Shown: positions 7,768 to 31,300 of the stretch, piece by piece
Position numbering within the stretch: the stretch's first letter is position 1
Layout: every line of letters begins with the position of its first letter
Origin: Minisyncoccota bacterium
GTDB lineage: Bacteria > Patescibacteriota > Minisyncoccia > Phycocordibacterales > JABAAK01
Length of the DNA stretch: 64,000 nt
Direction: 5' to 3'
NCBI GenBank assembly: GCA_965204115.1
Contig: OZ241963.1
Span: 468,622-532,621, forward strand
Position numbers and translations under genes: made by a program
Notes under the pieces: generated by a model
Seen by the model: the letters and a program-made list of their open reading frames with translations, nothing else
What the model was told of the DNA's origin: nothing
Database searches by the model: none

Positions 7768-7814
7768 ACTTTGCTCACCGGAGAGTGGGGCGTGTTTCAG
7801 GTTGTATTGGGAAG

Positions 7815-7887
7815 TCCGCCCACTAGGATTCGAACCTAGGACCACCGGCTTAAAAGGCCGTTGCTCTACCAACTGAGCTATGGGCGG
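7815..7887 (-). tRNA. tRNA-Lys (anticodon UUU)
   Basis: Reverse complement folds as a cloverleaf: acceptor CCGCCCA/TGGGCGG, D-arm GCTC-AGTTGGTA-GAGC, anticodon loop CTTTTAA, T-arm CTAGG-TTCGAAT-CCTAG, discriminator A. CCA is not encoded. Confidence 0.8.
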
Positions 7888-8607: not shown

Positions 8608-8655
8608 TGGTAGGCGGGTGTGGGGCATCTCAGGTTTGTGCGGTATTATGGGTAT

Positions 8656-13376: not shown

Positions 13377-16300
13377 ATGGATAAGTATGCTCGTTCTTTT
13401 CGGCAGGGGTTACGGCGTCCGATTTTGCTACTACTACTGCTTATTATGTCTTTTGTTTTTTATGCGACGACGCATGACACTTCTCGGGAAGGAGGTTCTA
13501 CTGTGTCGTATGCACAGTCGTCGACTTCTCGTGCCGCGTGGTTGGTAAAATCGTTTATTTGGAGTCGGGATGTGAATGCCTGGGCGCGGACGAACTGCAC
13601 TATGACAATCGGTGGGTTGGGTGCCACGGTGCTTGCTGCTTCAAGTCAGTCATATTGCAGCAACACCAGTTATGCAAACTTGAGTTTTCTGCAGTACTAC
13701 CATGACATTGATCCGGATGACACAACGCCGAACAATCGTTCTGATGATGTGTACGGCAAGATCAAAGGGCGTGCGTGGTCGCCGTTCTATGGAGTTATAT
13801 ACTTTGACCCCTCTGATTTTCCTTCCGCCGGTGCCGGTGCGTCCTGCTACGGGCTGACCGGGAATGATCGGCAGCCGCGGATAGAGCGACCCGAAGGCGG
13901 TAATGTGCGGATAGTCGGTTGTGCGTATGTGCCGCTTTTGCGTGATTATATTCTTTTCAACAGGTCCGGCGCGACGCATTCCGCTATGCCTTCTTCTTCC
14001 GAGTGGGGCGGGGTGCATGTTCTCACGGTGGAGAATGTTGCCAGTGCGTACCTCGTGCTGCGTGGTTGCGCGTGGTCAGCGTCAAATGGTTTTTGGGCAT
14101 TCGGATCGAACCAATCTTCTACCTCAGATGGCAAACAGAATTGTCTGCCGTCGGGACATAACACCAAGCTTAAAGCAGTGCTCCCTGAATCACGCATCGG
14201 CAGCCGCGGTGGTGTTTCGATTACAGTGAGTCCGACTCGCACCACCCTAAAAATCGGGCAGGAGGTTAGGTATCAGTACTTATGTCCTTCCGGGTATAAT
14301 ACCCCTACGCTTCGTATCGGCTCTCGGATTATTTCTACCGCCCTCGCACTTTTTCGTGGCTATCATAGTGAGATTTTCACTGACTCCGTGAGCGACCTCC
14401 TCCTTACCTGCACCGATGGCACTAATGTTTTCACCTCAGACCGCTCCTCTTCCGGTGCGATTGCTCCCTCGACTCAGAATTCTTTCTTTATTTCCTCATT
14501 TGCGGTTACTCCGTCTGTGCTCACTGAAGGCGGCTTTGTTTCATTCGGCGGCTTTGTGAGTAATCAGGGCAGTTTTGCGGATAGGGTTCCTGTTGACACT
14601 GCTACCGGGCACTGCGATAATACTCAGCGATATGGGTGTATTTACGGCGTTGCGAATGAAACGGTGATTGACGATAGTGATTCGTTGTATTATCAGTGGC
14701 GATGTGATGGGGTGGGCAATGCGGCACATTCAGGAATTTGTCAGATTCCGAAGGATTCTTCTCCTGCCGGTCTTTGTGATAATACTGTTCGCAATGGCTG
14801 CATGGTCGGCACTCCTAACGACGCTGCGGTTGTTGATATCCCTGCCTATTACCGTTGGCAGTGTGATGGTGTTAATGGTGGCAAGAACTCCGGTGCCTGT
14901 CAGTTTTCTACAAAGGCTGTTCTTGGTAATGAGGGCTACTGCACTATTACGAACAAGATTACCAAGCAGGAGATAAAGCGATTTGATGTTGACGGTATCA
15001 ATGTGGGTATCCCCGGTACTGATGTGGCAGTGCGGGATGCCGTGTATGATTTGCAGTGTCGGTATAAGAGGTTTAAGAGTGACGGAACTTTTGAAAAATG
15101 GCAGTCAGTTTCTGCCCCCCCTGTTACGGTGAAGGTTTTGCCGAGAAGTGTTTCTGAACGGAATGTTTCCGGTGCCGTTGACCCGCCGGTTTTTTCTGTT
15201 TCTAATGATACTGTTTCGGTGACCATCCCTCCCGGCGCTGCTATGGTGTATGTGTACCGTCTTAACCCTGCTTCTTCGAGCCAGGTTTCCCCAAGATCGT
15301 TGTACAAAATTTTTGTTGATCGTGATGCTGTTGAGCTGAGCAACAGTGAAACTGTTGATGAGCTGAAAGTGCGACTGTTTGAGTCTGCTGTGCGGAGTAG
15401 GGTAGTGGTGGTCGGTTCCCGCTCCGGAGGTATCACCAAATCTGCGGCCATCGGCAAGTCGCTGGTTGCTGCTGCACGAACCGTGAGCGGTGTATGGAGT
15501 CAGCAGACCGCATATACTTTCTCAGCTGATGGTTCCTGCGATGAATCGCTGCGCAATGGTTGCATTGTCGGTGCTGCCAATGATGAGGCGCTTGATGACT
15601 CCTCTACACACTATAGATGGCGATGTGATGGAATTGGTGGTGGGCGAGATTCTGTTGCTTGTGAAATACACAAGCCAATTGACGGCGGTTGGAGTGACTG
15701 GGCGTTATCTCCGGATGCTGTTCCTTGCGCAAATCCATTTACCCAGACAAGGGCTTGCAACAATCCGACACCGGCACACGGTGGTGTCGGATGTTCCGGC
15801 TCTTCAAGTCGTCCGAGTGTTGGGACGCAGTGTCGGTATAATGAGGTTTGCAGATATGGCTCTTGCGAGTTGTTGCCGTTCCTGTGTCCGGCAGGTTCTG
15901 TAGGTCCGAGTCCTGAGGTTACATATTGGGAGGTCGGAAGTCACAGATGTCTTTGGCGTGCGCCGAATAGGCAACCCACTCTCCCTGGTGCTTGGAGAGG
16001 GGATCGTTATACACTTCGTGCAAACACTGTTGTTAAAGGTGGCTATGAGGGATTTGGTTCGTTGGTGTTTGAGTGTCGAGGCTCCTATGATGATGTCAAG
16101 CGTTCTAATTGGAAGACGGTAGCCACCAATTGTGGTCCGGTTAGTACTGCTTGTGATACAGCGATACGCAACGGCTGCTTTGCCGGTACCGCTGTGGAAC
16201 TTGCCAGTTCTTCTACGCATTATAAATGGCGATGTGATGGGGTTGTTGGTGAGGTGTCTGTTGCCTGTGAGAAGCACTTGCCAGTTGACGGTGATTGGGG

Positions 16301-16676
16301 TGATTGGACACCGTCTGCGGATACCGTTGCTTGTGGAACTTCATTTGCTCAGACGAGGTCTTGTGATAGTCCGGCGCCGGCATATGGTGGTGTGGCGTGT
16401 TCCGGTTCTCCAAATCGCCGGGGTGTTGGGGAGCAGTGTTCGTCCGGTCGGGTTTGTGAGAACAATGTGTGTGTTTTGCAGTGTAGTAAAAAACGGATTG
16501 ATAGAACTTTAACCGGAGGTGGGGGTGCGATATGTCCATTCCAGGCCGAAGAGGTCCCTGTCGGACGAGGCACTTATACACTCAGGTCAAAAATTACTAA
16601 GTGGGGAACTGGTTCTATCGTGTTTGAGTGTAGAGATTCGGGGTGGGTTGAGGTGAGTAATGAATGTACCAGATAA
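13377..16676 (+). CDS. Large secreted Cys-rich repeat protein with two thrombospondin type-1 (TSP1) repeats
   Basis: N-terminal signal anchor. Six or more copies of a C-x5-(R/Q)(N/Y)GC-x-G...Y(Y/R)W(R/Q)CDG-x-G-x5-C module. Two segments match the TSP1 consensus: GGWSDW...C...TQTRAC.NPTPAHGGVGCSG and GDWGDW...C...AQTRSCDSPAPAYGGVACSG. Confidence 0.75.
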   Translation: MDKYARSFRQGLRRPILLLLLLIMSFVFYATTHDTSREGGSTVSYAQSSTSRAAWLVKSFIWSRDVNAWARTNCTMTIGGLGATVLAASSQSYCSNTSYANLSFLQYYHDIDPDDTTPNNRSDDVYGKIKGRAWSPFYGVIYFDPSDFPSAGAGASCYGLTGNDRQPRIERPEGGNVRIVGCAYVPLLRDYILFNRSGATHSAMPSSSEWGGVHVLTVENVASAYLVLRGCAWSASNGFWAFGSNQSSTSDGKQNCLPSGHNTKLKAVLPESRIGSRGGVSITVSPTRTTLKIGQEVRYQYLCPSGYNTPTLRIGSRIISTALALFRGYHSEIFTDSVSDLLLTCTDGTNVFTSDRSSSGAIAPSTQNSFFISSFAVTPSVLTEGGFVSFGGFVSNQGSFADRVPVDTATGHCDNTQRYGCIYGVANETVIDDSDSLYYQWRCDGVGNAAHSGICQIPKDSSPAGLCDNTVRNGCMVGTPNDAAVVDIPAYYRWQCDGVNGGKNSGACQFSTKAVLGNEGYCTITNKITKQEIKRFDVDGINVGIPGTDVAVRDAVYDLQCRYKRFKSDGTFEKWQSVSAPPVTVKVLPRSVSERNVSGAVDPPVFSVSNDTVSVTIPPGAAMVYVYRLNPASSSQVSPRSLYKIFVDRDAVELSNSETVDELKVRLFESAVRSRVVVVGSRSGGITKSAAIGKSLVAAARTVSGVWSQQTAYTFSADGSCDESLRNGCIVGAANDEALDDSSTHYRWRCDGIGGGRDSVACEIHKPIDGGWSDWALSPDAVPCANPFTQTRACNNPTPAHGGVGCSGSSSRPSVGTQCRYNEVCRYGSCELLPFLCPAGSVGPSPEVTYWEVGSHRCLWRAPNRQPTLPGAWRGDRYTLRANTVVKGGYEGFGSLVFECRGSYDDVKRSNWKTVATNCGPVSTACDTAIRNGCFAGTAVELASSSTHYKWRCDGVVGEVSVACEKHLPVDGDWGDWTPSADTVACGTSFAQTRSCDSPAPAYGGVACSGSPNRRGVGEQCSSGRVCENNVCVLQCSKKRIDRTLTGGGGAICPFQAEEVPVGRGTYTLRSKITKWGTGSIVFECRDSGWVEVSNECTR

Positions 16677-16916: not shown

Positions 16917-17069
<153 letters not shown>

Positions 17070-17101: not shown

Positions 17102-17674
17102 CTATATAATCATTGCAGTCAGGTAATCCATAGGAGTCGGTCCCAGATCCTCCTCTTTCGGAACCTCAAGTTTTGTGAGTGCGTGTTCTATATCCTGTAT
17201 GTTGACATCATAGATAGGGATTATTTCGTTGATGTTGACCACCCTTTCTATCTTAAGGATGAGGCGCGCGCGATTGCCCGGGTCGTCTATGATGTTAAAT
17301 CCTTTGATGCGGTCTGTTTCCACGAAGTCGTCGTCCATAAATAAGCCGATAGGGGTTATATTGAAGAGCATGTGTCTCGGCTCTTTCCGTATGGTGCCTA
17401 CGATGGTCACCGTCGCAAGGGCGAGCAGTGCGCCGAATATATAGTTTTTTATGATGATTGCCAGCAGTATTGCTCCTATACCGACGATAATGATGAGCAA
17501 CTCCTTGTCTTTCGTGTATGTTTTCTTTTCCTCAGTGAATTGCCACTTAACGAGAGATTCCATGTTTTCCGTTACGGAAGGTTTTTGATCGGGGGATTCT
17601 TGATTCTTTGTTTTTTCTGTTACTGTTTCTTGTTTCATACGCATATGTAGGCAGTATACACCGTTCATACACAC
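17102..17674 (-). CDS. Hypothetical membrane protein
   Basis: ORF with two predicted TM helices (LLIIIVGIGAILLAIIIKNYIFGALLALATVTIVG). No recognised domain. Confidence 0.4.
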   Translation of the reverse strand: MCMNGVYCLHMRMKQETVTEKTKNQESPDQKPSVTENMESLVKWQFTEEKKTYTKDKELLIIIVGIGAILLAIIIKNYIFGALLALATVTIVGTIRKEPRHMLFNITPIGLFMDDDFVETDRIKGFNIIDDPGNRARLILKIERVVNINEIIPIYDVNIQDIEHALTKLEVPKEEDLGPTPMDYLTAMII

Positions 17675-17715
17675 CAGCCGCTCGTTTTGTAATTGGTGGT
17701 ATACTGCTGTTATAT

Positions 17716-20700
17716 ATGTCGTTCTCTCGCTCTCTCTTTATCCTTTCCCTCATCCTTGGCGGGATGGTTTTCCTCCTCTTCGGCACTGCGCATGCGCGGG
17801 AGCGGCCCTCCTGGGATTCGTTCTCCTCGGAATATGCCGGTGTCGGTGTTGGGTATCGGGCAGGCGTGCGATTCTTTCGGGATGTCTCTGCTGATTTAGA
17901 GGGAGGAGACCCCACGCCGTCATTTTCTGTGAAAGTGGGGACCTCGCTTCCTGCGGGGCTGCAGCTCACCGGCACCGGCTATCTTGTTGGTGTGCCGACT
18001 GCCGCCGGAGTGTCGAAATTTACCATCGTGGCAAGCAATGCCTCCGGTATTGCGGAAAAACGGGTCACCTTACACATTCGTGAGCCATTCGGTGATACCA
18101 CCTATGGGCAGGGAGAGGTGCACAGCAGTATCCTTGATGCTCAAGTGTTTCTCAACAGCACCGATTGCCCGGTCGCGGCGTCAGGAGTAGGGTCACCAGG
18201 CAAGGAGGTTCTCTCATTCACTCCCGCCCTCAAGCAAGCCACCACCTGCTATCAACAGCTGCACTCTCTTCCCGCCACCGCCACCCTCACCCCGGCTCTC
18301 CTCCAACATTTCATCCAAACCTACACCGGTCGCTTTATTCCCGGAGATTTCACCCTGCCACCCGGTACCGTTCCGCTTTCTTCACCGCTCTGGAGTGATG
18401 ATCGTGTCACCTACACCACCTTTTCCAATGCACCCGTTACCCGCGACCTCTCTGATTCCCTTGTGCGCGGTTACCCCTCACCATCCTTTTCTGTGCAGGC
18501 AGGAACTGCTCTCCCGATTGGGCTTTCCCTCAGCGACTTCGGCATCATCTCCGGTACCCCCACCACTCCCACCACCGCTGATACCACCATTGTCGCCACC
18601 AATTCCTCCGGCAGCGCATCGTTTCGTATCGCCTGGACTGTGCGGGAAGGCGGGTACTCCCTCGGCTCCACCCACCCTGATGTTCGTCAGGCGCAGGTGT
18701 ACCTGAACGGCACTCCGTGTCCCATCGCCAGCACTGGCTCCGGTTCCCCCGGACAGGAGACCTCCTACTTCGGCACCAAGACCCGGCAGGCACTCAACTG
18801 CTACCAGCGGTTGCACAGCCTTCCTGTCACGAACACCATCACCCCAACGCTCCTCACACACCTGTCAAGACATTACACCCCTCCCGCTCTAAACAGACCT
18901 CAGGAGGTCTCCACACCTCTACAATCACCACTCGATCCGCCTCCTGCCCCTGCTGTTGTGCCCCAGGATGGTGTCTGCGATATCACTGTTTCGCAGGGAT
19001 GTGCCGTCGGCACCCCCGTTCAGCATGAACCCTCCTATATCTCCTTAGGAGAGCGCTGGCGCTGTCGTGGTGTCAACAACGGCTTCAGCTCTGACTGGTG
19101 TGTCCGCTGTGACGACGGCTATTCCTTTGACGGAAGAAACTGTTCCCGCAGCACCGCACAGGGTTCTCCCGGACTCCGCTGCTCCGGCACCACTGTCTCT
19201 TTCTGCCGCCTCCCTCGCTCTGCGCACGGCAATACCGTTGCCGGCGCCTGCTCCACAGGTCGCATTGGCTCTTGCGAATATGCCTGTCGTGACGGCATCT
19301 GGACTGCTGTGGCGAACAGCTGCACAAAACCAAGCCCGTGTGTCGGAAGCACTGTTGCCGGCTGTGTTCTGCAAGATACCCGACACGACACTCTCACCGA
19401 CGGCTCCTGTGCCGACGGCTCCACCGGCGCCTGCCGTTACCGCTGCACAAACAGTGTCTGGAAAGCTGTTTCTAACACTTGTGCTCGCGCCTGTGTTGAC
19501 GGTACTTTCTCCGGCTGCGCGGTGGACGCTGCTTCACACGATGCTGTCGGCGGCTCCTGTACTGCCGGCTATACCGGCTCGTGTGCGTACCGCTGCACTG
19601 ACGGCATCTGGAGCAGAGTTTCAAATACCTGCTCGGTGATACCTGTCGTGGAGAGTCAGAGGCGATCGTGTATCGAGGGCATTTTCTCCGGCTGTGCGCT
19701 GGACACCACCTCGCATAGTGCTGTTGACGGCTCCTGTGCCGTGGGCTATGTCGGCTCGTGCGCGTACCGCTGCGCTGACGGCTCTTGGAGTCAGGTTTCA
19801 AATACCTGTTCGGCAATATCTCCTGTGATGACTCAGGAGCAATTGCCCGGACCGTCTTTGGGCTGCTCGGCCAATGTTTTTTCTCACTGCGCTTTAGATG
19901 CTGTTTCTCACAGGGCGGTTGCCGGTTCGTGTGAGAGAGGGTACACCGGGTCCTGTCAGTATGCGTGTGGTAACGGGGAGTGGAATTTTGTTTCAAACAC
20001 CTGCACGCGACAGGCCTCCTTGGCCCAAAGAGTCATTACCCCGATAGTTTCCACCGTGTCGCGACTGGTCGGTGGCGGTGGCTCTACCAATGGCGAGGGA
20101 GGTGTTAGTAATGACGGGGGATATGTTAGGAAAAATACCGCATGCTTAGGCCAACAAAGTGTGGACGGTGTTTGCGACGGTCAGGGCGGGTGTTCTTCGG
20201 GGAAGAGGCGCGATCCGGGAGGGTCATACTGGACGCACGGCTCCTGTTCCGACGGCAATATTGAACGGTCGTACAGCTGTATAGGGCAGTGTGGCGGTTC
20301 AGACGCTTCATGCTCAGGCACTACGGTTTGTGATTTGGGGTGTAGTTATGGTTATGCACTTGATGGGGAAACCAGCAGCCCGCGGTGTAATAACTGCGCT
20401 TCGGACAGCGACTGTAGAACGGGAACTTTTTGCGAAAGGGGTCGGTGCATTATCGGTGTGGGAGCACGGGGGATTCCAACCTTCAGAATCGATCGTCTGG
20501 ATGAACTTCGTCAATGCGGGTGTGATACCTATGATGCGTTCTGTAGTAACAATCGCTGTACTTTCTGTTCTTGCAGCATCTTTGATGTCACGAAGAAGGA
20601 GTACAAATCAACCGGGAAATTGTGCAGTGTTACCTCTGATTGTTCAGGCGCTTCGGAAGTGGCGGGAGTTACCTGGGACAGCGAAGGGTGTCATTGTCAG

Positions 20701-22224
20701 CATTCACATGCGGACGGTTCTTTTCATGGAAATAACACACAGCATGGCACAGATGCTCAGGGTAACCGTGTTGACTCGGAGTGTACGGGTTGGTGCAGTC
20801 CCGGACCCTGCTATGAATCGGGCGGGATGTATGGCTGTCAAGTGGAGTGTGAGGACGGCATTGTAACGAAATCGAGCGGGTGCAAGAGCAGAGACGGTGC
20901 TTGGTGCGGCGGCGGCGGACTGGTGGGCACTCGCTGTTCTCGGGCCGCCGGCTCAGAAACACTCACGGCAAAAACACCTCCTAAGGTGGTTGACCGGACT
21001 AAAACTACCACAACAGGAACAGACACAGGAGGCGGCGCCGGCACAACGGGTGATGAGAGACGGCCTGATACGGGTAATGGCGGCACGATAGGCGGCACAG
21101 GCGGTGAAACAACCCTTGACTGCAGCAGCAGATCTTCCTGTCCGTGTCCGCAGAACGATTGGTGCTCCAGTGGTCAGGTGGGTACCTGTTCCTGTGTCCC
21201 CAACTCAGATGGAAGTCGCTGCATCCAAAGTCGTTCTTTGACCCCGTGTCCGCAAGGCCAAAACTGCAGCAACGGTTCATGTACAGGAGGAGGCGGCACA
21301 GGCGGTGAAACAACCCTTGACTGCAGCAGCAGATCTTCCTGTCCGTGTCCGCAGAACGATTGGTGCTCCAGTGGTCAGGTGGGTACCTGTTCCTGTGTCC
21401 CCAACTCAGATGGAAGTCGCTGCATCCAAAGTCGTTCTTTGACCCCATGTCCGCAAGGCCAAAACTGCAGTAATGGTTCATGCACCTCTTCCGGTGGCGG
21501 GAATGCCGATTGCCCGACGACGATAGAATCCTGCAGGTGCCATGGCATCAGTCTTTTCGGGGGATGTATCGGTACCTACTGGGAAAGAGTCAGGCTGTGT
21601 AATGGTGACGCACTCTCCAGAAAGTGTGGTAGTAGTACAACCAAAAAGAAAAAGGCCACTACTAAGGTTCGCGCTCCGGACAATCCCCCTAAAGGTCCGG
21701 AACCTATTCAAAACGTTCCCGCTCCAGAGAGGGCTGCCCAGAAAGCCCCTGTTCAAACGACTACCCAAAGGGCTCCTGTCCCTGTAGATGATACTCCTCC
21801 CTGCAGCTCTAATGAGTGTGGTTGTTCTAACACCGGGACATGGTGTCATGGGGGTTCATCAGAGAGGTCATGTTACTGCGCAGTGAGCAATGGGTCGTGT
21901 GTAAAGAAATATTCTACATCATCTTGCGCTAGTGGGGTCTGTAGCGGCGGGTCATGTACCTCAGCTGGCGATACTCCGAATAGTTATCCTCCAAAAAGTT
22001 ACTCGCCAAAAAGTTACTCTCCAAGAAGCTACAGTCCAAGAAGTTACTCTCCAAGAAGCTACAGTCCAAGAAGTTACTCTCCAAGAAGCTACAGTCCAAG
22101 AAGTTACTCTCCGAGAAGTTATCCCTCAGCGGATTACGGCGAGTGTTGCCACAGAGGGCACTGTCACACTAGGAGCAGGTCTTATGCAGACGGGGACCGG
22201 AGTTGCGAACACAAGAATGACTGA
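17716..22224 (+). CDS. Giant secreted Cys-rich surface protein with PG-binding-like and Ig-like domains, Cys modules and a SYSPR-repeat tail
   Basis: Signal peptide MSFSRSLFILSLILGGMVFLLFGTAHA. Two PG_binding_1-like segments (V..Q.YLN...GSPG.ET..FG..T..A..CYQ..H.LP.T..ITP). Six tandem C-x-DG-x-FSGCA-x-D...SH.AV.GSC..GY.GSC.YRC.DG.W modules. A duplicated 65-aa Cys unit. A C-terminal (SYSP[RK])n tail and a Cys/His tail. Confidence 0.75.
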   Translation: MSFSRSLFILSLILGGMVFLLFGTAHARERPSWDSFSSEYAGVGVGYRAGVRFFRDVSADLEGGDPTPSFSVKVGTSLPAGLQLTGTGYLVGVPTAAGVSKFTIVASNASGIAEKRVTLHIREPFGDTTYGQGEVHSSILDAQVFLNSTDCPVAASGVGSPGKEVLSFTPALKQATTCYQQLHSLPATATLTPALLQHFIQTYTGRFIPGDFTLPPGTVPLSSPLWSDDRVTYTTFSNAPVTRDLSDSLVRGYPSPSFSVQAGTALPIGLSLSDFGIISGTPTTPTTADTTIVATNSSGSASFRIAWTVREGGYSLGSTHPDVRQAQVYLNGTPCPIASTGSGSPGQETSYFGTKTRQALNCYQRLHSLPVTNTITPTLLTHLSRHYTPPALNRPQEVSTPLQSPLDPPPAPAVVPQDGVCDITVSQGCAVGTPVQHEPSYISLGERWRCRGVNNGFSSDWCVRCDDGYSFDGRNCSRSTAQGSPGLRCSGTTVSFCRLPRSAHGNTVAGACSTGRIGSCEYACRDGIWTAVANSCTKPSPCVGSTVAGCVLQDTRHDTLTDGSCADGSTGACRYRCTNSVWKAVSNTCARACVDGTFSGCAVDAASHDAVGGSCTAGYTGSCAYRCTDGIWSRVSNTCSVIPVVESQRRSCIEGIFSGCALDTTSHSAVDGSCAVGYVGSCAYRCADGSWSQVSNTCSAISPVMTQEQLPGPSLGCSANVFSHCALDAVSHRAVAGSCERGYTGSCQYACGNGEWNFVSNTCTRQASLAQRVITPIVSTVSRLVGGGGSTNGEGGVSNDGGYVRKNTACLGQQSVDGVCDGQGGCSSGKRRDPGGSYWTHGSCSDGNIERSYSCIGQCGGSDASCSGTTVCDLGCSYGYALDGETSSPRCNNCASDSDCRTGTFCERGRCIIGVGARGIPTFRIDRLDELRQCGCDTYDAFCSNNRCTFCSCSIFDVTKKEYKSTGKLCSVTSDCSGASEVAGVTWDSEGCHCQHSHADGSFHGNNTQHGTDAQGNRVDSECTGWCSPGPCYESGGMYGCQVECEDGIVTKSSGCKSRDGAWCGGGGLVGTRCSRAAGSETLTAKTPPKVVDRTKTTTTGTDTGGGAGTTGDERRPDTGNGGTIGGTGGETTLDCSSRSSCPCPQNDWCSSGQVGTCSCVPNSDGSRCIQSRSLTPCPQGQNCSNGSCTGGGGTGGETTLDCSSRSSCPCPQNDWCSSGQVGTCSCVPNSDGSRCIQSRSLTPCPQGQNCSNGSCTSSGGGNADCPTTIESCRCHGISLFGGCIGTYWERVRLCNGDALSRKCGSSTTKKKKATTKVRAPDNPPKGPEPIQNVPAPERAAQKAPVQTTTQRAPVPVDDTPPCSSNECGCSNTGTWCHGGSSERSCYCAVSNGSCVKKYSTSSCASGVCSGGSCTSAGDTPNSYPPKSYSPKSYSPRSYSPRSYSPRSYSPRSYSPRSYSPRSYSPRSYPSADYGECCHRGHCHTRSRSYADGDRSCEHKND
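21091..21482 (+). repeat. Near-exact tandem duplication (2 x about 196 bp) inside the giant gene
   Basis: ggcggtgaaacaacccttgactgcagcagcagatcttcctgtccgtgtccgcagaacgattgg... occurs twice back to back. It encodes TLDCSSRSSCPCPQNDWCSSGQVGTCSCVPNSDGSRCIQSRSLTPCPQGQNCSNGSC. Confidence 0.85.
22000..22125 (+). repeat. 15/30-bp in-frame microrepeat encoding (SYSPR)n
   Basis: agttactctccaagaagctacagtccaaga iterated, encoding SYSPRSYSPR about 8 times. Confidence 0.85.
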
Positions 22225-22520: not shown

Positions 22521-22594
22521 GGGCGATTAGCTCAGTTGGCTAGAGCGTCTGGTTTACACCCAGAAGGTCGCAGGTTCGAGCCCTGCATCGCCCA
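22521..22594 (+). tRNA. tRNA-Val (anticodon UAC)
   Basis: GGGCGAT acceptor, D-arm GCTC-AGTTGGCTA-GAGC, anticodon stem-loop TCTGG-TTTACAC-CCAGA, T-arm GCAGG-TTCGAGC-CCTGC, 3' ATCGCCC-A. Confidence 0.85.
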
Positions 22595-22706
22595 CTAAAA
22601 AGCATTAGAAGTGTATGCTTGACATACACCTTTCGGCGGGTTGTCTTTGCGGCTGTATGGGGTGGGGTGGTGGGGCAGTGTTGTTCGTGCTGTATGATGG
22701 TGGTAT

Positions 22707-23503: not shown

Positions 23504-26062
23504 ATGTCTCCATTCTCGGCAGTGTGGCGTGTTTTCCTGCTTACCCTCGGTTTGACAGTGCTTATCAGCGTGGGTTTTCTCGGGGTGGCGGACGCGCAAG
23601 AGTCTACAACCCGCCGAAGCCCCTTGGATTTGGTAACAACCTGTGCCGCTGATGAATATGCCACCAGAACCAAAGAGGGCATCGTCTGCAAGGCGCCCAC
23701 AGACAACTGGGATAGTGAGGCCACCGCAGGCAGTCACTGCAGAACAGGACAGTTTCTGAAAGTTACCCCAACCGGCCTGCAGTGTTTTCCCTTCAGCGAC
23801 AAGACCAGCACCTACACCACCTACTGCTCCGACTGCTGCGGAGTTGAAGAATTTGCCGTCATCACTACCCTGGGGTTGCGTTGCGCGGGTGCCAGTTGTT
23901 CCAGTGACAGTGAGTGTGCTGGTAATGCCCACTGTGACCCCATCATCAACCGCTGTGTGCAGTGTGTCGGTGACAACTGCGGGGAGTGTGTCTGGGACAC
24001 TAACTACTCCTGTGATTCTGCGCAGCCGACAAAACGGGTCAAGCATTGTCGATTCTCCGGGGTTATACGGAATACGCAGTTCCTGACCTGTCCGCATAAC
24101 GGGACCTGTTCGGGTGGGGCGTGTGTGTGTGTGCCGAAAACTTCCGGGGGCTGGACTGCCGCGCCGTCGTGTGCCGCGCCGTCCTCCGTGCGGTGTGACA
24201 CAGCCATTCCCGATAAGTATGGCACCTGTCGGTACGGCACCACTGCGGCTTGTGAGACGATACAGTGTACCGGCACGCGACCGACGCGAACCTGCACCGG
24301 CAGGGGTACCTATTGCCCGACCGGTCAACAGTGTGGCGTGTATGGCTGCTATTCTCCGACAGGCACCTCCCCTTCTTCATACAGTCCTGCTTCGTATAGT
24401 AGTGCCCCTTCTTCATACACTCCTTCCTCCTACCCCCCCTCCTCCTATGTTGACTCCCCTCCTTCCTATCCTATTGTTGACCCCCCTCCTTCTATTGACT
24501 GCAGCAGCAAATCCTCTTGTGGGTGTTTACAAGACCAGTGTGTGGGTAATCAGGCGTACAGTTGCTCCTGTGTCGCTCGTTCGGGTCGCTGCGTTCTGAG
24601 TCGTACGCTGACCCCGTGTTCGCATGGTTGTAGTAACGGTTCATGTGATGATGACAGCCGAGGGAAGGGGGGAGGTGTAGGTGTTCGTGATCAAGGAGGC
24701 AGTTGTCCTTCGCCGAGCTACACCTGCGGTAATTGGAGCGGAGGATGTCTTACGGCGGGCAGTTTTGGCGGGTTGGTTACCGGGAACAGCAAGATACGGA
24801 GGTGTACCTGTGAATCTGAAGGCTGCTGTGATCAGGGGTCAGAGTGGTTAGAGCACGGGAATTGTAGTCAAGGCACATCAACGAATACGAAGAAGACATA
24901 CACCGGCACATGGTCAAGAGGGAGTTGTAGTTCCTCGAAAAAGATCTGTGGTATAGGAAACTTTGAGACTGAAACTTTCACCTGCTCTGTGACCTGTTCC
25001 GGAGGCGCCTGCGATCCGACTACAAAACCGAGCGGATCATACAGTGTTGAAGGAGGGTGTTGTAATGGTGGGGTAGGTATAGCATGTACTACTGATGTGC
25101 AAAGAAAACAATATGAAGACACAAGGAAGGGCGCAGAACTTGTCGTAGACACCCTCACAAGTAACCATTGTCATACGGGTGGTCGGTGTGTAACATGCTC
25201 TTCAATAGTCGGTGGACATGAGGACACCGGTCATGGTTGCGGCCCTCATAATAGTGACAGCTCTGCTACCCCCCCGTCCTACCCGCCGAATAGTTACCCT
25301 TCAGATAGTGAAGATAGTGATACTCCTCCCTGCAGCCCTAATGAGTGTGGTTGTTCTAACACCGGGACATGGTGTCATGGGGGTTCATCAGAGAGGTCAT
25401 GTTATTGCGCAGTGAGCAACGGGTCGTGTGTAAGGAAATATTCTACATCATCTTGCGCTAGTGGGGTCTGTAGCGGCGGGTCATGTACCTCAGCCGGTAA
25501 TACTCCGAATAGTTATCCTCCAAAAAGTTACTCGCCAAAAAGCTACAGTCCAAAAAGTTACTCTCCGAGAAGTTACAGTCCAAGAAGTTACTCTCCGAGA
25601 AGTTACCCTTCAGATAGTGATACTCCTCCCTGCAGCCCTAATGAGTGTGGTTGTTCTAACACCGGGACATGGTGTCATGGGGGTTCATCAGAGAGGTCAT
25701 GTTATTGCGCAGTGAGCAACGGGTCGTGTGTAAGGAAATATTCTACATCATCTTGCGCTAGTGGGGTCTGTAGCGGCGGGTCATGTACCTCAGCCGGTAA
25801 TACTCCGAATAGTTATCCTCCAAAAAGTTACTCGCCAAAAAGCTACAGTCCAAAAAGTTACTCTCCGAGAAGTTACAGTCCAAGAAGTTACTCTCCGAGA
25901 AGTTACTCCAAGAAGCCGAGAAGTTACAGTCCAAGAAGTTACTCTCCGAGAAGTTATTCCTCATCATCAGCGAGCCTCCATTGTCATTGGGGTGGTAAGT
26001 GCAGAACCTGCGGAGAAGGTCAAGGACACGAGGATACTGGTCACAGTGGTTGCAGTCATTAG
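23504..26062 (+). CDS. Giant secreted Cys-rich protein, paralogous to the C-terminal half of 17716..22224
   Basis: Signal peptide. Many Cys-rich modules. Two tandem copies of TPPCSPNECGCSNTGTWCHGGSSERSCYCAVSNGSCVRKYSTSSCASGVCSGGSCTSAG followed by SY(S/P)P(K/R) repeats. His/Cys tails HCH.GG.C.TC...GHEDTGH.GC. Confidence 0.75.
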   Translation: MSPFSAVWRVFLLTLGLTVLISVGFLGVADAQESTTRRSPLDLVTTCAADEYATRTKEGIVCKAPTDNWDSEATAGSHCRTGQFLKVTPTGLQCFPFSDKTSTYTTYCSDCCGVEEFAVITTLGLRCAGASCSSDSECAGNAHCDPIINRCVQCVGDNCGECVWDTNYSCDSAQPTKRVKHCRFSGVIRNTQFLTCPHNGTCSGGACVCVPKTSGGWTAAPSCAAPSSVRCDTAIPDKYGTCRYGTTAACETIQCTGTRPTRTCTGRGTYCPTGQQCGVYGCYSPTGTSPSSYSPASYSSAPSSYTPSSYPPSSYVDSPPSYPIVDPPPSIDCSSKSSCGCLQDQCVGNQAYSCSCVARSGRCVLSRTLTPCSHGCSNGSCDDDSRGKGGGVGVRDQGGSCPSPSYTCGNWSGGCLTAGSFGGLVTGNSKIRRCTCESEGCCDQGSEWLEHGNCSQGTSTNTKKTYTGTWSRGSCSSSKKICGIGNFETETFTCSVTCSGGACDPTTKPSGSYSVEGGCCNGGVGIACTTDVQRKQYEDTRKGAELVVDTLTSNHCHTGGRCVTCSSIVGGHEDTGHGCGPHNSDSSATPPSYPPNSYPSDSEDSDTPPCSPNECGCSNTGTWCHGGSSERSCYCAVSNGSCVRKYSTSSCASGVCSGGSCTSAGNTPNSYPPKSYSPKSYSPKSYSPRSYSPRSYSPRSYPSDSDTPPCSPNECGCSNTGTWCHGGSSERSCYCAVSNGSCVRKYSTSSCASGVCSGGSCTSAGNTPNSYPPKSYSPKSYSPKSYSPRSYSPRSYSPRSYSKKPRSYSPRSYSPRSYSSSSASLHCHWGGKCRTCGEGQGHEDTGHSGCSH
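25307..25915 (+). repeat. Tandem duplication of an about 300-bp cassette (2 copies, above 95% identical); a third about 90%-identical copy lies in the neighbouring gene at about 21791..22100
   Basis: The stretch gatactcctccctgcagccctaatgagtgtggttgttctaacaccgggacatggtgtcatggggg...agttactctccgagaagttac is repeated with a period of about 300-309 bp. The homologous stretch in gene 17716..22224 differs at a few positions. Confidence 0.85.
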
Positions 26063-28063: not shown

Positions 28064-28378
28064 TCTGGTTTCCTCCTCAAAATAGCGTTACAAGACCTTT
28101 TTAGGGTCTTTTTTGTTAAGGCTCAAACTACAGTTATTATACAATACTGTAGCAAATATGCAAGTTACCGTAGGCACTTGCTGAGCGATATTATCTGACT
28201 TTACCCCGCTCTTCTGGCACCAGTATACCGCACCCCTTTCTCGCTGCCAATACCGATTTCTTGTTTTTGCAGTAGTCGGTTTGGTGCGGAAGGGGGTGGG
28301 ATAGGTTGGGGTGAGGGGCTCTTTGATTATTGTGTTGCATTTTCCGCCGTGTATTTTTTCAGGGTTGTATACTGGGAA

Positions 28379-31300
28379 TATGGTTGTGCGTTGTTTTTTC
28401 TATCTCTTTCTTTTTTTTGGACTATTCTTATCACCGGTTGCCATCGCGGAAGGTGCTGTTGTTTCCGGTGCCGCTCCGGGGGAGATGAAAGATGTGTTGG
28501 TGGATTGCCTGTCACTGGCGGATGAGCGGGATGCCTGCTATGCGACTGCTTGCGAGTATGAGCCCGGGTACTTGTGTGCGGAAGATGTGCTTGATGTGGT
28601 GGTAGAGATTGCCGGTCCGGAGCGAGCGATGGGGGTGCTGCACGAGATAATGGCGAGCCCTGTGTTTGCTATTACCTCTGACGGGCATCTGTTATCGCAT
28701 ATTGTCGGTCGAGCGACATCGCGCGTGTTCGGCTCTTCAGGGAACAATTTCTTGCGCTGTCCTTCTGACTTTAACAACGGTTGTTTTCACGGTTTTTTTG
28801 AGGACACCCTTCCGAAATCGGATTCGCCGGTGGATGTGGTTGTTTCTATTTGCGAGAATATGCCTCCTGACACACCGTTGAAAGAAAAATCCTATTGCTA
28901 TCACGGTGCGGGGCATGTGTTTATGATGCAGGTGAGCCATGATCTTGATGCTGCAATTGATCTTTGCCTGCAGGTGCCTGAGAATTGGTCGGAGAGTTGT
29001 TGGCAGGGGGTTTTTATGGAGAATGCCGGTGAGCGGGAGTGGGAATTGAAGCGGAAGAATTTTCGGGAAGATGAGCCATTGTATCCGTGTACCGCTGTTG
29101 AAGATCGTTTTAAGACCGAGTGCTATGTCAATCACCACGGATATCTTATCCGGCACTATAGCGAGTCATGGGATGAACTTGTTGCTGTATGTCTCGGTGC
29201 GGAGGATTTCACGCATGCCTGTCTCGGTGGCTTGGGGCTCATGCTCGGCAGTGATTTTTGGACTACCATCGTCGCTCAAGGGACACCTGTTGAAGGTAGG
29301 CCCCACACGGAGCAGGTGGTTTTTCTCTGTAATCAGTTTCCCTATGATTACATAGATGTTTGTTACTCCAATCTTATCCCTTCGTTTCTTAATTTTGACG
29401 GCACGGATATTCGAAATGCCTCAGGGGTGTGTGCTCTTGCCGATGCAGAGCATCGGCATGCTTGCTTCGAGCGCATCGGCTCTTACCTGAGTAATTTAGT
29501 TTCCGATGAGTCGGAAAAGATTGCTGTATGCCATAGTGTTCCGAGAGAATATCGTGATGCGTGTTTGGGTGTGCGTTCGGAAGAGTTTGATGGATATGTA
29601 GATAGGGAGGTGTCCGAGGGCACTGCGGCTAATGGTTCCGGTTCATTTTTCTCTAGAGCAGTTCAGTTTCTTTCCGCGTTATTTGGCCGTTTAGCAACGG
29701 CTTTTACGCGACCGGTGCATGCACATTCTGGTGGTAGTGATGAGCAGGATCTGTCTCGGTATGCGCACCCTGAATTGCATCAAGGTCTTGAGGTGTGTTT
29801 ATCGTTGCAGGAGGGGAGGGATATGTGTTATTTGTCTCTGTGTGATGGTGCTGTTGGGTTTCTTTGTGCGGAGGATGTACTGCATACCGCCACGGTCGGT
29901 TTTGGTCCCGAGGTGGCGATGCAGGTGTTGGAGGAGATGATAGCAAGCCCCCTTTTTTCATTCAATGCGGCGAACGAAGGGCACAGCTTGGCGCATGCTA
30001 TTGGGAGAATAACTGCACAGCACTTCGGTGGCACCGGCGATGCCTTTTTGCGATGTCCCACTGCACTTGATTATGGCTGCCAGCATGGGTTTCTTGAGGA
30101 TGCGTTGATTAGAGTTGACTCTCCCGCGGAGGCGGTGACGAATATTTGTGAAAGTTTGCCGGCAGTGCCGACGATAGGTCGACCGAATTGCTACCATGGT
30201 TCGGGGCATGGAGTGATGATGAATGCGAGCTATGACCTTGCTGAGGCACTTGCTGTGTGTGATCAGGTTCCCGATCCTTTGAGTTGTTTTACCGGAGTTG
30301 CTATGGAGAATGTGAGTGGGAAGACCTCCGGTAGAATACAGGAACTATATGCAGAGCATGACAGTTTTGAAAAAGATAACCCGCTGGCGCCCTGTGACAC
30401 ACTGACTGACACACTTCATCGCAGGGCGTGTTATCGACAGCACATGCCGTATTTGGCATCTTATTTCAGCCATGACCTGCAGGATGTGGTGGATGCCTGT
30501 CTTGGTGCGGGTGATCCTGTTGATATTCGTGATTGTGTGTTTGGCTTCGGTGCGTATGGTATCTATGACGGCATTCAGGAGAGTTTTCTTCACGGTTTTG
30601 AGGGTGATTTTATGGACAAAATAATTATTATGTGCAATCAGTTTCCTGAGGAATACCGCATGCATTGCTACACACCGGCGATTGATCAGTCGACTGTTTT
30701 TTATCGGGTGAAAAGGGCTTCTGATTTTTGTTATAAGATTGACGCGCGATACATGCGGGAGTGTTTCAATGTCATCGGCGATCGTTTGAGGAGTTTAGTT
30801 GTTGATCGTGACGAGACAGAAGCAGAGTGCTCTTCAGTTCCTGAGGAGTATCGGATTGAGTGTACTGATCCGCATCGGCATCAAGGGGAAGATGTCTCTG
30901 TTGATACGCCTTTTGGCGTGATAGCGGTTGAGCAGGCATCCGATTCTTTATTTGCGTGGGTTAAGCAGCTTCTTTCTGACATTGTTGCGGATGTATTCAG
31001 TGTGCTTGGTATGTTTGCTCGCCCTGTTTCCGCGCAAAGTGTTGCTGTGCCTTTAGCTGAAGGGGTGGAAAAATGTTTGGAGCAAGGGGGTGAGGTGGCG
31101 TGTTATGCTTCGCTGTGTGCATATGAGTCAGGGTATTTGTGCGCGGAGAGTATTTTGGAGGTGGTGACGAAAGGGTGGGGTCCTGAGGTTGCTATGGAAA
31201 TACTGATGAATATGATACAGAGCCCACTTTTCTCTTTTAGTCCGTCATCAGAGGGGCATAACTTAGCTCATACCGTTGGTCGGGTTACAGCGCAATGGTT

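What the first reader, a model, noticed from the sequence alone, without database searches (positions are those of the whole stretch)
15660..16450. Thrombospondin type-1 repeats in a bacterial secreted protein
Two segments (about 15672..15860 and 16257..16440) fit the TSP1 consensus W-x-x-W ... C ... R-x-C-x-x-P-x-P-x-x-G-G-x-x-C-x-G. They read GGWSDWALSPDAVPCANPFTQTRACNNPTPAHGGVGCSG and GDWGDWTPSADTVACGTSFAQTRSCDSPAPAYGGVACSG. TSP1 is chiefly a eukaryotic extracellular-matrix and adhesion module, and bacterial instances are rare. The same protein carries six or more copies of an unrecognised 4-Cys module (C-x5-RNGC-x-G...Y.W.CDG...C), which also occurs once in the 17716 gene.
Basis: partly seen in the sequence, partly recalled or inferred. 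Interest (0 to 1): 0.6.

Follow-up and report, generated by a model that had tools for sequence, protein, structure and literature searches.

The report
Divergent thrombospondin repeats in bacterial adhesin
Two real but divergent thrombospondin type-1 repeats sit in a large, disulfide-rich surface protein of an ultra-small (Patescibacteria) bacterium; such repeats turn out to be fairly common in uncultured bacteria, so this is a new member of a known kind.

Summary
The ORF 13377..16676 (+, 1099 aa) holds two thrombospondin type-1 repeats (TSRs) at aa 769-830 and 971-1032 (nt 15681-15866 and 16287-16472).

**TSR identity.** Each segment alone hits human thrombospondin-1 TSR2-3 (1LSL) at E 3e-9 and 3e-10. 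A profile of 12 relatives reaches E 7e-15. The segments are about 50% identical to Pfam-positive TSRs of a related bacterial protein. Pfam's own TSP_1 model misses them, because the third Trp, Cys1 and one Arg of the ladder are lost and a Cys hairpin is added.

**The 4-Cys module.** It matches nothing in Pfam, NCBIfam or the PDB. It is found in about 965 protein clusters.

**Architecture.**
- N-terminal signal or anchor segment.
- A string of Ig/FN3-like beta-sandwich domains.
- Two tandem cassettes, each 4-Cys, then TSR, then a 4-Cys beta domain I call "X".

Every module has an even number of Cys. The most likely function is a cell-surface adhesin of a Kaiserbacteria-like symbiont; its closest relatives come from sponge microbiomes.

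**Rarity.** Bacterial TSRs are not rare. One scan found 113 loci in species-representative genomes, and 9 of 10 sampled ORFs pass Pfam's TSP_1 threshold.

Interest is moderate to low.

The parts
13377..16676 (+). Whole gene: 1099-aa modular, Cys-rich extracytoplasmic protein (= P0001)
   Evidence: ORF. It has 27 homologues, almost all from small Patescibacteria-type contigs. No Pfam hit on the whole protein.
13377..13514 (+). N-terminal signal peptide or membrane anchor (aa 1-46): basic n-region, hydrophobic stretch aa ~12-33, conserved 'A-Q-S-S' just after it
   Evidence: This is the only strongly hydrophobic 19-residue window in the protein (KD 1.95 at aa 15). The layout is conserved in the homologues. 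Cleavage was not tested.
13515..14591 (+). N core (aa 47-405), family-defining region with repeated G-x-A-W-S...G-x-I-x-F motifs; predicted beta-sandwich domains
   Evidence: Conserved in all family members. AF2 model pLDDT 72 overall. Foldseek hits are multi-Ig/FN3 ectodomains and bacterial adhesins.
14604..14750 (+). 4-Cys module copy 1 (aa 410-458)
   Evidence: hmmsearch i-E 4e-28
14766..14909 (+). 4-Cys module copy 2 (aa 464-511)
   Evidence: hmmsearch i-E 8e-29
14913..15521 (+). M core (aa 513-715), second family-defining region; directly contiguous with the N core in the simpler relatives
   Evidence: BLASTP segments. Best-predicted part of model 2, pLDDT 85-94. Ig/FN3-like hits.
15528..15671 (+). 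4-Cys module copy 3 (aa 718-765), start of cassette 1
   Evidence: hmmsearch i-E 1.3e-28
15681..15866 (+). TSR 1 plus C-terminal Cys hairpin (aa 769-830; 6 Cys)
   Evidence: HMM built from Pfam-positive TSRs gives i-E 1.1e-11. phmmer against 1LSL gives E 3.3e-9. 52% identity to P0016 TSRs.
15882..16136 (+). Domain X copy 1 (aa 836-920; 4 Cys; ends ...FECxxxxW...C)
   Evidence: HMM i-E 2.6e-22. No Pfam match.
16143..16277 (+). 4-Cys module copy 4 (aa 923-967), start of cassette 2
   Evidence: hmmsearch i-E 1.3e-23. Modelled at pLDDT ~80-85 as a small beta module.
16287..16472 (+). TSR 2 plus C-terminal Cys hairpin (aa 971-1032; 6 Cys)
   Evidence: i-E 5.2e-11. phmmer against 1LSL gives E 2.8e-10. 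The AF2 model has an irregular strand A followed by two regular strands. Top Foldseek hits are TSR proteins.
16476..16670 (+). Domain X copy 2 (aa 1034-1098; 4 Cys), five long beta strands
   Evidence: HMM i-E 5.6e-21. AF2 pLDDT 90-96.
18967..19101 (+). Single 4-Cys module in the neighbouring Cys-rich ORF 17608..22224
   Evidence: hmmsearch i-E 2.2e-8. BLASTP 48% identity to copy 2.
19168..20010 (+). Five repeats in the neighbouring ORF whose C-terminal halves (C-x-DG-x-W-x(2)-V-x-N-x-C) weakly resemble domain X
   Evidence: Domain X HMM gives whole-ORF E 7.6e-8, but individual repeats only reach i-E 0.002-0.2. This is a weak lead.

Best explanation
The gene encodes an extracytoplasmic, disulfide-stabilised, beads-on-a-string surface protein of a Patescibacteria (Kaiserbacteria-like) bacterium. 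It is most likely an adhesin used to hold on to a partner cell or to host matrix.

**Layout, from N to C terminus.**
- An N-terminal hydrophobic segment exports or anchors the protein.
- A conserved core of Ig/FN3-like beta-sandwich domains (regions N and M) forms the stalk.
- The distal end is two tandem copies of a three-part cassette: a 4-Cys module, then a TSR with an extra Cys hairpin, then a 4-Cys beta domain 'X'.

**The TSRs.** They are genuine homologues of thrombospondin type-1 repeats, of a bacterial subtype. They keep W-x-x-W, the strand-B motif Q-T-R-x-C, the C-x-x-P-x-P-x-x-G-G-x-x-C-x-G turn and the strand-C Arg. They have lost the third Trp, Cys1 (and with it the canonical C1-C5 disulfide) and one ladder Arg.

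**Shown and inferred.** Shown here: TSR homology, module boundaries and copy numbers, family distribution, and the predicted folds. Inferred: export, disulfide bonding, and the binding role. By analogy with eukaryotic TSRs, the ligand would be a glycan or an anionic polymer on another cell surface.
For: **TSR homology.**
- Each segment alone hits human thrombospondin-1 TSR2-3 at E 3.3e-9 and 2.8e-10, and nearly all other hits are TSR proteins.
- A profile of 12 family TSRs gives E 7e-15 against 1LSL and 3R6B, and also hits UNC5, ADAMTS13, properdin and C6.
- The segments are 50-52% identical to TSRs of P0016, which pass Pfam TSP_1 at 75 bits.

**Structure.**
- The AF2 model of aa 918-1099 has pLDDT 84. 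The TSR shows an irregular first strand followed by two regular strands.
- The top Foldseek PDB hits are C6, thrombospondin-1 TSRs (probability 0.94-0.98), properdin and UNC5D.

**The cassette is conserved.** The order 4-Cys, TSR, X recurs at the C-terminus of P0002-P0010.

**Extracytoplasmic location.** There is one N-terminal hydrophobic segment, and every module has an even Cys count, in order N, 4-Cys 1, 4-Cys 2, M, 4-Cys 3, TSR 1, X 1, 4-Cys 4, TSR 2, X 2: 8, 4, 4, 2, 4, 6, 4, 4, 6, 4.

**Stalk.** The model of aa 40-720 gives 64 PDB hits at E<=1e-3. All are chains of Ig/FN3 domains and include the bacterial adhesins SiiE and GhpA. No enzyme fold appears.

**Variable tips on a constant core.** Relatives carry FG-GAP, LRR or long 4-Cys arrays on the same N/M core.

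**Organism.** MetRS, ClpP and SOD are neighbours. The nearest named MetRS are from Kaiserbacteria and Patescibacteria. The closest full-length homologue is in Kaiserbacteria APA_bin_25, a MAG series from the sponge Aplysina aerophoba (PMC11706023).
Against: - Pfam TSP_1 and its sister models do not reach threshold. There is no hit on the whole protein, and the best E is 0.21 on isolated segments.
- Model coordinates could not be inspected, so the Trp/Arg stacking and the disulfide pairing are not verified.
- There is no direct evidence for export, surface display or any ligand.
- The N-terminal region of model 2 is partly low-confidence, with pLDDT below 50 for 128 residues.
Confidence: 0.6

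Rival explanations
1. It is a eukaryote-mimicking effector. The TSRs imitate the sponge host's own extracellular-matrix or immune proteins, which are rich in TSRs, in order to evade phagocytosis or to dock onto host matrix. They would not serve bacterium-to-bacterium attachment.
For: The nearest full-length relatives come from sponge-associated MAG sets. P0016, which has 4-Cys arrays plus canonical TSRs, lies on a contig with ankyrin-repeat and reprolysin genes, which are typical 'eukaryote-like' symbiont genes. The window's TSR 1 is about 40% identical to human thrombospondin-1 TSR3 (my count, 19 of 45 aligned positions in the alignment printed).
Against: TSRs of the same bacterial flavour occur in many groundwater, lake and sediment Patescibacteria, and in Bdellovibrionota, Myxococcota and Omnitrophota, none of which have an animal host. 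The window organism's habitat is not known.
Confidence: 0.15
2. It is a structural envelope or appendage component, such as an S-layer-like coat, a fibril or a pilus-associated protein, with the Cys-rich modules acting as rigid spacers. In this reading it is not a specific adhesin.
For: The model is a long string of beta-sandwich domains with no recognisable binding or catalytic domain. The gene lies among several other very Cys-rich large ORFs at 17608.., 23504.. and 28311.., some of which carry a PG_binding_1 domain.
Against: The distal modules vary strongly between close relatives while the core stays fixed. That pattern is typical of ligand-facing tips and not of structural spacers. Where TSRs have been studied, they are binding modules (established knowledge).
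Confidence: 0.2
3. The TSRs are a recent horizontal transfer from an animal host, or the region is eukaryotic contamination or a chimeric assembly.
For: TSRs are best known from animals and apicomplexans. Thrombospondin-1 is the best PDB match.
Against: - The gene is one uninterrupted 1099-codon ORF among bacterial housekeeping genes and tRNAs, and its GC content matches its flanks.
- At least 12 other Patescibacteria genomes carry the same N/M core with the same TSR subtype, at 47-60% identity.
- Bacterial TSRs share their own consensus (GGW[ST]xW ... QTRxCxNPxP..GG..C.G), and 63 of 166 lack Cys1 as this protein does.
Confidence: 0.04
4. The resemblance to TSRs is a chance similarity between Cys/Gly/Pro-rich sequences.
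For: No Pfam TSP_1 hit. The domain is short and compositionally biased.
Against: Independent searches give E values of 1e-9 to 1e-15, and the hit lists consist almost only of TSR proteins. The conserved positions coincide with the structural core of solved TSRs.
Confidence: 0.01

Closest known systems
Thrombospondin type-1 repeat (TSR; Pfam TSP_1 PF00090, clan with TSP1_spondin, TSP1_ADAMTS and TSP1_CCN), for example human thrombospondin-1 TSR2-3 (PDB 1LSL)
   Same: - About 50 residues long.
- D-G-G-W-S-x-W at the start.
- A Cys-Gly at the A-B turn.
- Strand B ends in R-x-C.
- N-P-x-P-x-x-G-G-x-x-C-x-G loop.
- An Arg on strand C, followed by two more Cys.
- Significant sequence similarity (E 1e-9 to 1e-15).
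- The predicted three-strand layout.
   Different: - The third Trp is replaced (Leu in TSR 1, absent in TSR 2).
- Cys1 is replaced by Asp, so the canonical C1-C5 disulfide cannot form.
- The first ladder Arg is Gln (Q-T-R).
- An extra Cys sits in an added C-terminal beta hairpin (C-x5-C-x4-C).
- The O-fucosylation consensus C-x-x-S/T-C-x-x-G is gone.
- The segments score below Pfam's threshold.
Pfam-positive bacterial TSR proteins, for example P0016 (12 4-Cys modules by eye in the sequence, 10 by HMM, plus 7 TSRs) and ORFs in loci L004, L028, L044, L045 and L057
   Same: They share the bacterial TSR consensus. The TSRs are placed in large secreted multi-module proteins, in some cases directly after arrays of the same 4-Cys module.
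   Different: Those copies keep Cys1 and often the full W/R set, and they pass Pfam's TSP_1 threshold at 30-178 bits. They lack the N/M core and domain X of the window protein's family.
Giant bacterial Ig/FN3-repeat adhesins (Salmonella SiiE, Aureispira grappling-hook protein GhpA)
   Same: The predicted N/M core is a chain of beta-sandwich domains. These proteins are among the Foldseek hits, with E 3e-5 to 4e-4.
   Different: There is no detectable sequence similarity. The window protein is much shorter, lacks their Ca-binding motifs as far as tested, and carries disulfide-rich tip modules.
Sushi/CCP and hormone-receptor-motif-like modules (a lead for domain X only)
   Same: Four Cys and a C-x(2-3)-S-G-W-x(5-7)-C ending. 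The only PDB sequence hits are a Cys-rich ectodomain stretch of adhesion GPCR ADGRF1 with the same ending.
   Different: The E value of 0.24 is not significant. There is no Pfam Sushi or HRM hit. The predicted strands are longer than in CCP modules. Membership is not supported.

Membership tests
Thrombospondin type-1 repeat (TSR / TSP_1) superfamily | Statistically significant sequence homology to structurally defined TSRs | tested here: met
   phmmer of each segment against PDB sequences gives 1LSL at E 3.3e-9 and 2.8e-10. The profile gives E 7e-15. An HMM built from Pfam-positive TSRs gives i-E 1e-11 and 5e-11.
Thrombospondin type-1 repeat (TSR / TSP_1) superfamily | Score at or above the gathering threshold of Pfam PF00090 or its sister models.
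   No hit on the whole protein at E<=1. No TSP_1 hit on the isolated segments. Among 12 family TSRs, the best TSP_1 E is 0.21, found in 4 members.
Thrombospondin type-1 repeat (TSR / TSP_1) superfamily | W-x-x-W(-x-x-W) motif on strand A | tested here: met
   W-S-D-W and W-G-D-W are present, and both Trp are invariant in the family alignment. The optional third Trp is absent (alignments).
Thrombospondin type-1 repeat (TSR / TSP_1) superfamily | Arg residues on strand B (R-x-R) that stack with the Trp (the Trp/Arg ladder) | tested here: inconclusive
   Only one strand-B Arg is kept (Q-T-R, with Q, T and R invariant), plus a nearly invariant Arg on strand C.
Thrombospondin type-1 repeat (TSR / TSP_1) superfamily | Six Cys in the canonical group-1 pattern (C1-C5, C2-C6, C3-C4) | tested here: not met
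   Cys1 aligns to Asp in both copies. There are still six Cys per module, because an extra Cys lies in a C-terminal hairpin. Of 166 bacterial TSRs sampled, 63 also lack Cys1. Cys patterns are known to vary between TSR groups, so this marks a subtype and does not exclude membership.
Thrombospondin type-1 repeat (TSR / TSP_1) superfamily | Elongated three-strand fold: a rippled strand A plus two regular antiparallel strands | tested here: inconclusive
Thrombospondin type-1 repeat (TSR / TSP_1) superfamily | C-mannosylation of W-x-x-W and O-fucosylation of C-x-x-S/T-C-x-x-G (eukaryotic TSRs) | not testable with these tools
   The O-fucose consensus is absent because Cys1 is missing (this follows from the sequence). 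No such modification systems are known in bacteria (general knowledge).
Any curated family for the 4-Cys module (C-D-x3-R-N-G-C-x2-G ... Y-x-W-R-C-D-G ... C) | A match to a Pfam, NCBIfam or PDB sequence | tested here: not met
   No Pfam family is shared by more than 2 of 58 copies. Proteins with up to 25 copies give no Pfam match. No NCBIfam match. The best PDB hit has E 0.048 and is spurious. The module is unrelated to the TSR by hhalign. The module itself is widespread: 965 clusters at E<=1e-3.
Sushi/CCP (considered for domain X) | A Pfam Sushi match, or a significant match to a solved CCP module | tested here: not met
   No Pfam hit for any of 11 copies at E<=10. The only PDB hits are ADGRF1 at E 0.24-0.71.
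Bacterial Ig/FN3-repeat surface adhesins | An exported protein built from tandem beta-sandwich domains | tested here: met
   There are 64 Foldseek PDB hits at E<=1e-3, all to multi-Ig/FN3 chains and including SiiE and GhpA. Adhesion itself was not tested.

The most novel reading that the evidence does not exclude
TSRs, together with the undescribed 4-Cys module and domain X, may be a widespread prokaryotic cell-attachment toolkit. It would be used especially by bacteria that live on or prey on other cells: Patescibacteria epibionts, Bdellovibrionota, Myxococcota, Omnitrophota and sponge symbionts. On this reading the TSR is an ancient bacterial adhesion module, and possibly the source of the eukaryotic one, not a eukaryotic invention occasionally borrowed by bacteria. 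The conserved cassette 4-Cys, TSR, X would be a specific recognition head that determines partner choice in Kaiserbacteria-like symbionts.
Probability: 0.15. Interest if true: 0.7.

Novelty: new member of a known kind. Interest (0 to 1): 0.35.

Why it matters
**Annotation.** Standard domain models miss a whole bacterial subtype of TSR: two Trp, one Arg, no Cys1, and an added Cys hairpin. A profile built from alignment A1 would recover these copies.

**Biology.** The result adds to the picture that ultra-small Patescibacteria invest much of a genome of about 0.66 Mb in large, disulfide-rich, modular surface proteins. Four such genes lie within 20 kb here. These are the obvious candidates for partner or host attachment, which is the central open question for these organisms.

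**The 4-Cys module.** It is found in about 965 protein clusters, with up to 45 copies per protein, and has no curated family. It is a concrete candidate for a new domain entry.

None of this overturns current understanding. TSP_1 hits in bacteria are already produced by Pfam.

Tried and rejected
- **Pfam on the protein and the isolated segments.** No TSP_1 hit. Only weak, sub-threshold ADAMTS_CR_2 and Dickkopf_N noise appeared.
- **The look-up of encoding contigs for the window protein.** Not on record.
- **Word-indexed homologue search with the 48-aa 4-Cys profile.** It produced only 30 candidates and 2 hits, so a search was effectively wasted. The exhaustive representative search worked instead.
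- **Is the 4-Cys module a degenerate TSR?** Rejected by hhalign, probability 0.3%.
- **Is domain X a Sushi/CCP or HRM module?** Not supported.
- **Is the N/M core an enzyme or a lectin?** Only Ig/FN3-type chains were found.
- **Paralogues of the N/M core elsewhere in the window.** None; only the 4-Cys module is shared with ORF 17608...
- **Literature searches.** Searches for bacterial or Patescibacteria TSRs found nothing relevant in the held library.


Full report
**What is at the coordinates**

The finding lies in one long ORF, window 13377..16676 on the + strand, 1099 aa. GGWSDW...GCSG is aa 770-808 (nt 15684-15800). GDWGDW...ACSG is aa 972-1010 (nt 16290-16406).

The gene sits among ordinary bacterial genes: methionyl-tRNA synthetase, ClpP, Fe/Mn superoxide dismutase, a DUF2268 protease and a pseudouridine synthase. 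Three tRNA genes are nearby. GC content is the same as in the flanks.

The protein is identical to a database entry from a 661,662-bp contig. Its homologues come almost entirely from contigs of 0.5-0.85 Mb. The nearest named MetRS relatives are 'Candidatus Kaiserbacteria' and 'Patescibacteria group'. The organism is therefore an ultra-small Patescibacteria (Paceibacterota, Kaiserbacteria-like) bacterium.

**Are the two segments thrombospondin type-1 repeats?**

Pfam says nothing. There is no family at E<=1 on the whole protein. There is no TSP_1 hit on the isolated segments. Among 12 homologous segments, only a few sub-threshold TSP_1 hits appear, the best at E 0.21.

Four independent lines show that the homology is real.
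- The homologue P0016 contains seven repeats that pass Pfam TSP_1 (75 bits against a cutoff of 21.6). The window's segments are 50-52% identical to them, with pairwise E of 2e-12 to 4e-12 for the best alignments.
- An HMM built only from those seven Pfam-positive repeats finds exactly two places in a six-frame translation of the whole window. They are the two segments, at i-E 1.1e-11 and 5.2e-11.
- Each window segment on its own, run with phmmer against all PDB sequences, has human thrombospondin-1 TSR2-3 (1LSL, 3R6B, 7YYK) as best hit, at E 3.3e-9 and 2.8e-10. The rest of the list is UNC5B/D, properdin, ADAMTS13 and complement C6-C8, and nothing else of note.
- A profile of 12 family copies (alignment A1) raises this to E 7e-15.

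**How these TSRs differ from the textbook repeat**

From the alignments:
- **Kept.** W-x-x-W; the Cys-Gly of the A-B turn (C2); Q-T-R-x-C on strand B (C3); N-P-x-P-x-x-G-G-x-x-C-x-G (C4); an Arg on strand C; and two further Cys.
- **Lost.** The third Trp, which is Leu in copy 1 and skipped in copy 2. Cys1, which is Asp in both, so no C1-C5 disulfide and no O-fucosylation consensus. The first ladder Arg, which is Gln.
- **Gained.** A C-terminal beta hairpin with one extra Cys (C-x5-C-x4-C), which brings the module back to six Cys.

This explains why Pfam's model misses them. The subtype is not peculiar to this gene. Of 166 TSR modules that I extracted from other bacterial loci, 71 have the canonical C1/C2 arrangement and 63 lack C1 in the same way.

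**How rare are bacterial TSRs?**

They are not rare. One scan of species-representative genomes (GTDB) used just two peptide patterns taken from A1. It returned 202 pattern matches, of which 113 were confirmed by tblastn.

By my reading of the record titles, about 43 of the 80 loci kept are Patescibacteria: Paceibacterota, Nomura-, Moran-, Yanofsky-, Buchanan- and Staskawiczbacteria, and records labelled Saccharibacteria. The rest include Bdellovibrionota, Myxococcota, Omnitrophota, Rickettsiales, Azotimanducaceae and other Gammaproteobacteria, Thermodesulfovibrionia, Planctomycetales and one DPANN archaeon.

The patterns came from Patescibacteria sequences, so the proportions are biased. The breadth is not. 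Ten ORFs sampled from these loci were scanned with Pfam, and nine pass the TSP_1 gathering score, at 30 to 178 bits. Bacterial TSP_1 domains are thus already visible to standard annotation. I found no paper on them in the held library.

**The 4-Cys module**

Y-x-W-R-C-D-G-x2-G-G-x2-S-x2-C, about 48 aa. An HMM search with all filters off finds four copies in this protein, not six or more. They are aa 410-458, 464-511, 718-765 and 923-967 (i-E 1e-23 to 1e-29). One copy lies in the neighbouring ORF 17608..22224 (i-E 2e-8).

The relatives carry up to 11 copies. A profile of 58 diverse copies (A2) was scored against 1.84 billion representative proteins. It gives 965 proteins at E<=1e-3, 387 at E<=1e-10 and 103 at E<=1e-30, with up to 45 copies in one protein.

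The module matches no Pfam family, no NCBIfam model and no PDB sequence. It is unrelated to the TSR by profile-profile comparison. In the model it is a small beta module at pLDDT about 80-85.

It co-occurs with TSRs outside Patescibacteria too, for example in Azotimanducaceae loci L004, L016 and L053 and in Omnitrophota locus L048.

**Whole architecture**

BLASTP against the 26 homologues shows two conserved core regions: N (aa ~47-405) and M (aa ~513-715). They are contiguous in the simplest family members (P0015, P0017, P0018, P0021). In this subfamily they are separated by inserted 4-Cys modules, and in P0002-P0012 also by FG-GAP repeats.

An AF2 model of aa 40-720 has mean pLDDT 72, with region M at 85-94. 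It gives 64 PDB matches at E<=1e-3. All are chains of Ig/FN3-type beta-sandwich domains. They include receptor tyrosine phosphatase ectodomains, cytokine receptors, alpha-2-macroglobulin MG domains, the Salmonella giant adhesin SiiE and the Aureispira grappling-hook protein GhpA. No enzyme fold appears.

After M come two tandem cassettes, 48% identical to each other. Each is a 4-Cys module, then a TSR with hairpin, then a further 4-Cys domain that I call X (aa 836-920 and 1034-1098).

Domain X is predicted with pLDDT 90-96 as five long strands. It is conserved at the C-terminus of P0002-P0010. It has no Pfam match. Its only PDB sequence hits are insignificant matches (E 0.24-0.71) to a Cys-rich ectodomain stretch of adhesion GPCR ADGRF1 that shares its C-x-x-S-G-W-x6-C ending. 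That is a Sushi/HRM-like flavour, a lead only.

Five repeats in the neighbouring ORF weakly match the same ending.

**Location and likely function**

The only strongly hydrophobic stretch is aa ~12-33. It is preceded by basic residues and followed by a conserved A-Q-S-S motif in the relatives. All 46 Cys lie downstream of it. Every module has an even number of them, in order N, 4-Cys 1, 4-Cys 2, M, 4-Cys 3, TSR 1, X 1, 4-Cys 4, TSR 2, X 2: 8, 4, 4, 2, 4, 6, 4, 4, 6, 4. That is what one expects of an exported protein with intramodule disulfides. Export and disulfide formation are inferred, not shown.

Three features fit a surface adhesin whose tip determines what it binds:
- a constant beta-sandwich stalk;
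- distal modules that differ between close relatives (FG-GAP, LRR, 4-Cys arrays, TSR-X cassettes);
- TSRs, which in every studied case are binding modules for glycosaminoglycans and cell-surface receptors (established knowledge of thrombospondin, properdin, TRAP/CSP and UNC5).

The closest full-length homologue (55% identity over 96% of the length, P0010/P0028) is in Kaiserbacteria MAG APA_bin_25. The APA_bin series comes from the sponge Aplysina aerophoba (PMC11706023). A sponge-associated lifestyle is therefore plausible for the window organism but is not established. Whether the ligand is on a bacterial partner or in host matrix cannot be decided here.

**Rivals**

- **Host mimicry aimed at the sponge.** This is possible. 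P0016's contig also carries ankyrin and reprolysin genes. It does not explain the many TSRs in groundwater Patescibacteria.
- **A purely structural envelope role.** This is possible, but it fits the variable tips poorly.
- **Recent transfer from an animal, contamination, or chance similarity.** These are effectively excluded by the gene context, by the conserved family in at least 12 Patescibacteria genomes, by the distinct bacterial TSR consensus, and by the E values.

**Verdict**

The rarity claim and the copy number of the 4-Cys module are not.

The thing itself is a divergent, Pfam-invisible member of an already catalogued but little-discussed class, bacterial TSR-containing surface proteins. 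It is embedded in a Patescibacteria-specific adhesin family. Its two companion modules, 4-Cys and X, have no curated family.

Noticed in passing
window 13377-33419: Four large Cys-rich ORFs lie within 20 kb of each other: 13377..16676 (4.2% Cys), 17608..22224 (7.3%), 23504..26062 (10.1%) and 28311..33419 (3.8%, with FG-GAP repeats). This looks like a surface-protein island in a genome of about 0.66 Mb.
   Followed up: partly
window 21989-22121, 25503-25606, 25803-25956: S-Y-S-P-[KR] pentapeptide arrays (15-bp tandem repeats, 7-9 copies) lie near the C-termini of ORFs 17608..22224 and 23504..26062. They look like extensin-type Pro/Ser/Tyr spacers.
   Followed up: no
window 25312-25906 and 21090-21482: There is a perfect 300-bp tandem duplication (2 copies, 100% match) and a 201-bp one (98%) inside the Cys-rich genes. 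A Cys-rich module of about 55 aa (PPCSxNECGCSNTGTWCHGGSSERSCYCAVSNGSCV.KYSTSSCASGVCSGGSCTSAG) is nearly identical between ORF 17608.. and ORF 23504... This suggests recent duplication or gene conversion.
   Followed up: no
window 17608-22224: The neighbouring 1538-aa ORF carries a PG_binding_1 domain (aa 356-416, 27.9 bits against a cutoff of 23). This suggests peptidoglycan attachment of at least one of the Cys-rich proteins.
   Followed up: no
L001:8001-18643: P0016 has 12 4-Cys modules by eye in the sequence (10 by HMM) plus 7 canonical TSRs. It is followed directly by two ~1200-aa reprolysin-type (M12B) metalloprotease genes. That is an ADAMTS-like pairing of reprolysin and TSRs, but split over separate genes. 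Ankyrin-repeat and restriction-modification genes are on the same contig.
   Followed up: no
L030:6001-6132: One TSR-encoding locus comes from a record labelled Candidatus Pacearchaeota archaeon (DPANN). It may be an archaeal instance or a binning error.
   Followed up: no
L025:3088-5511: A Bacteriovoracaceae ORF of 808 aa consists of about 12 back-to-back TSRs of the single-Cys subtype (R-H-G-G-W-S-x-W ... Q-x-R-x-C-N-x-P-x-P-x-N-G-G).
   Followed up: no
window 13515-14591 (aa 47-405): The N core contains four copies of a short motif, G-[RC]-A-[WY]-[SV]-x3-G-x-[IW]-x-F (for example GRAWSPFYGVIYF, GCAYVPLLRDYILF, GCAWSASNGFWAF). The motif is conserved across the family and may be a repeated beta hairpin. 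It is not in Pfam.
   Followed up: partly
window 8620-10377 and relatives' contigs: The MetRS homologues and the adhesin homologues come from contigs of identical length in several relatives (491,860; 92,606; 847,186; 647,271; 59,165; 54,452; 731,333 bp). The two genes therefore lie on the same contigs, and possibly in the same neighbourhood, across the clade.
   Followed up: no
window 16982-17069 (-) and 22521-22595 (+): tRNA-Ser(TGA) and tRNA-Val(TAC) flank the 17608..22224 gene. tRNA-Lys(TTT) lies at 7814-7887.
   Followed up: no
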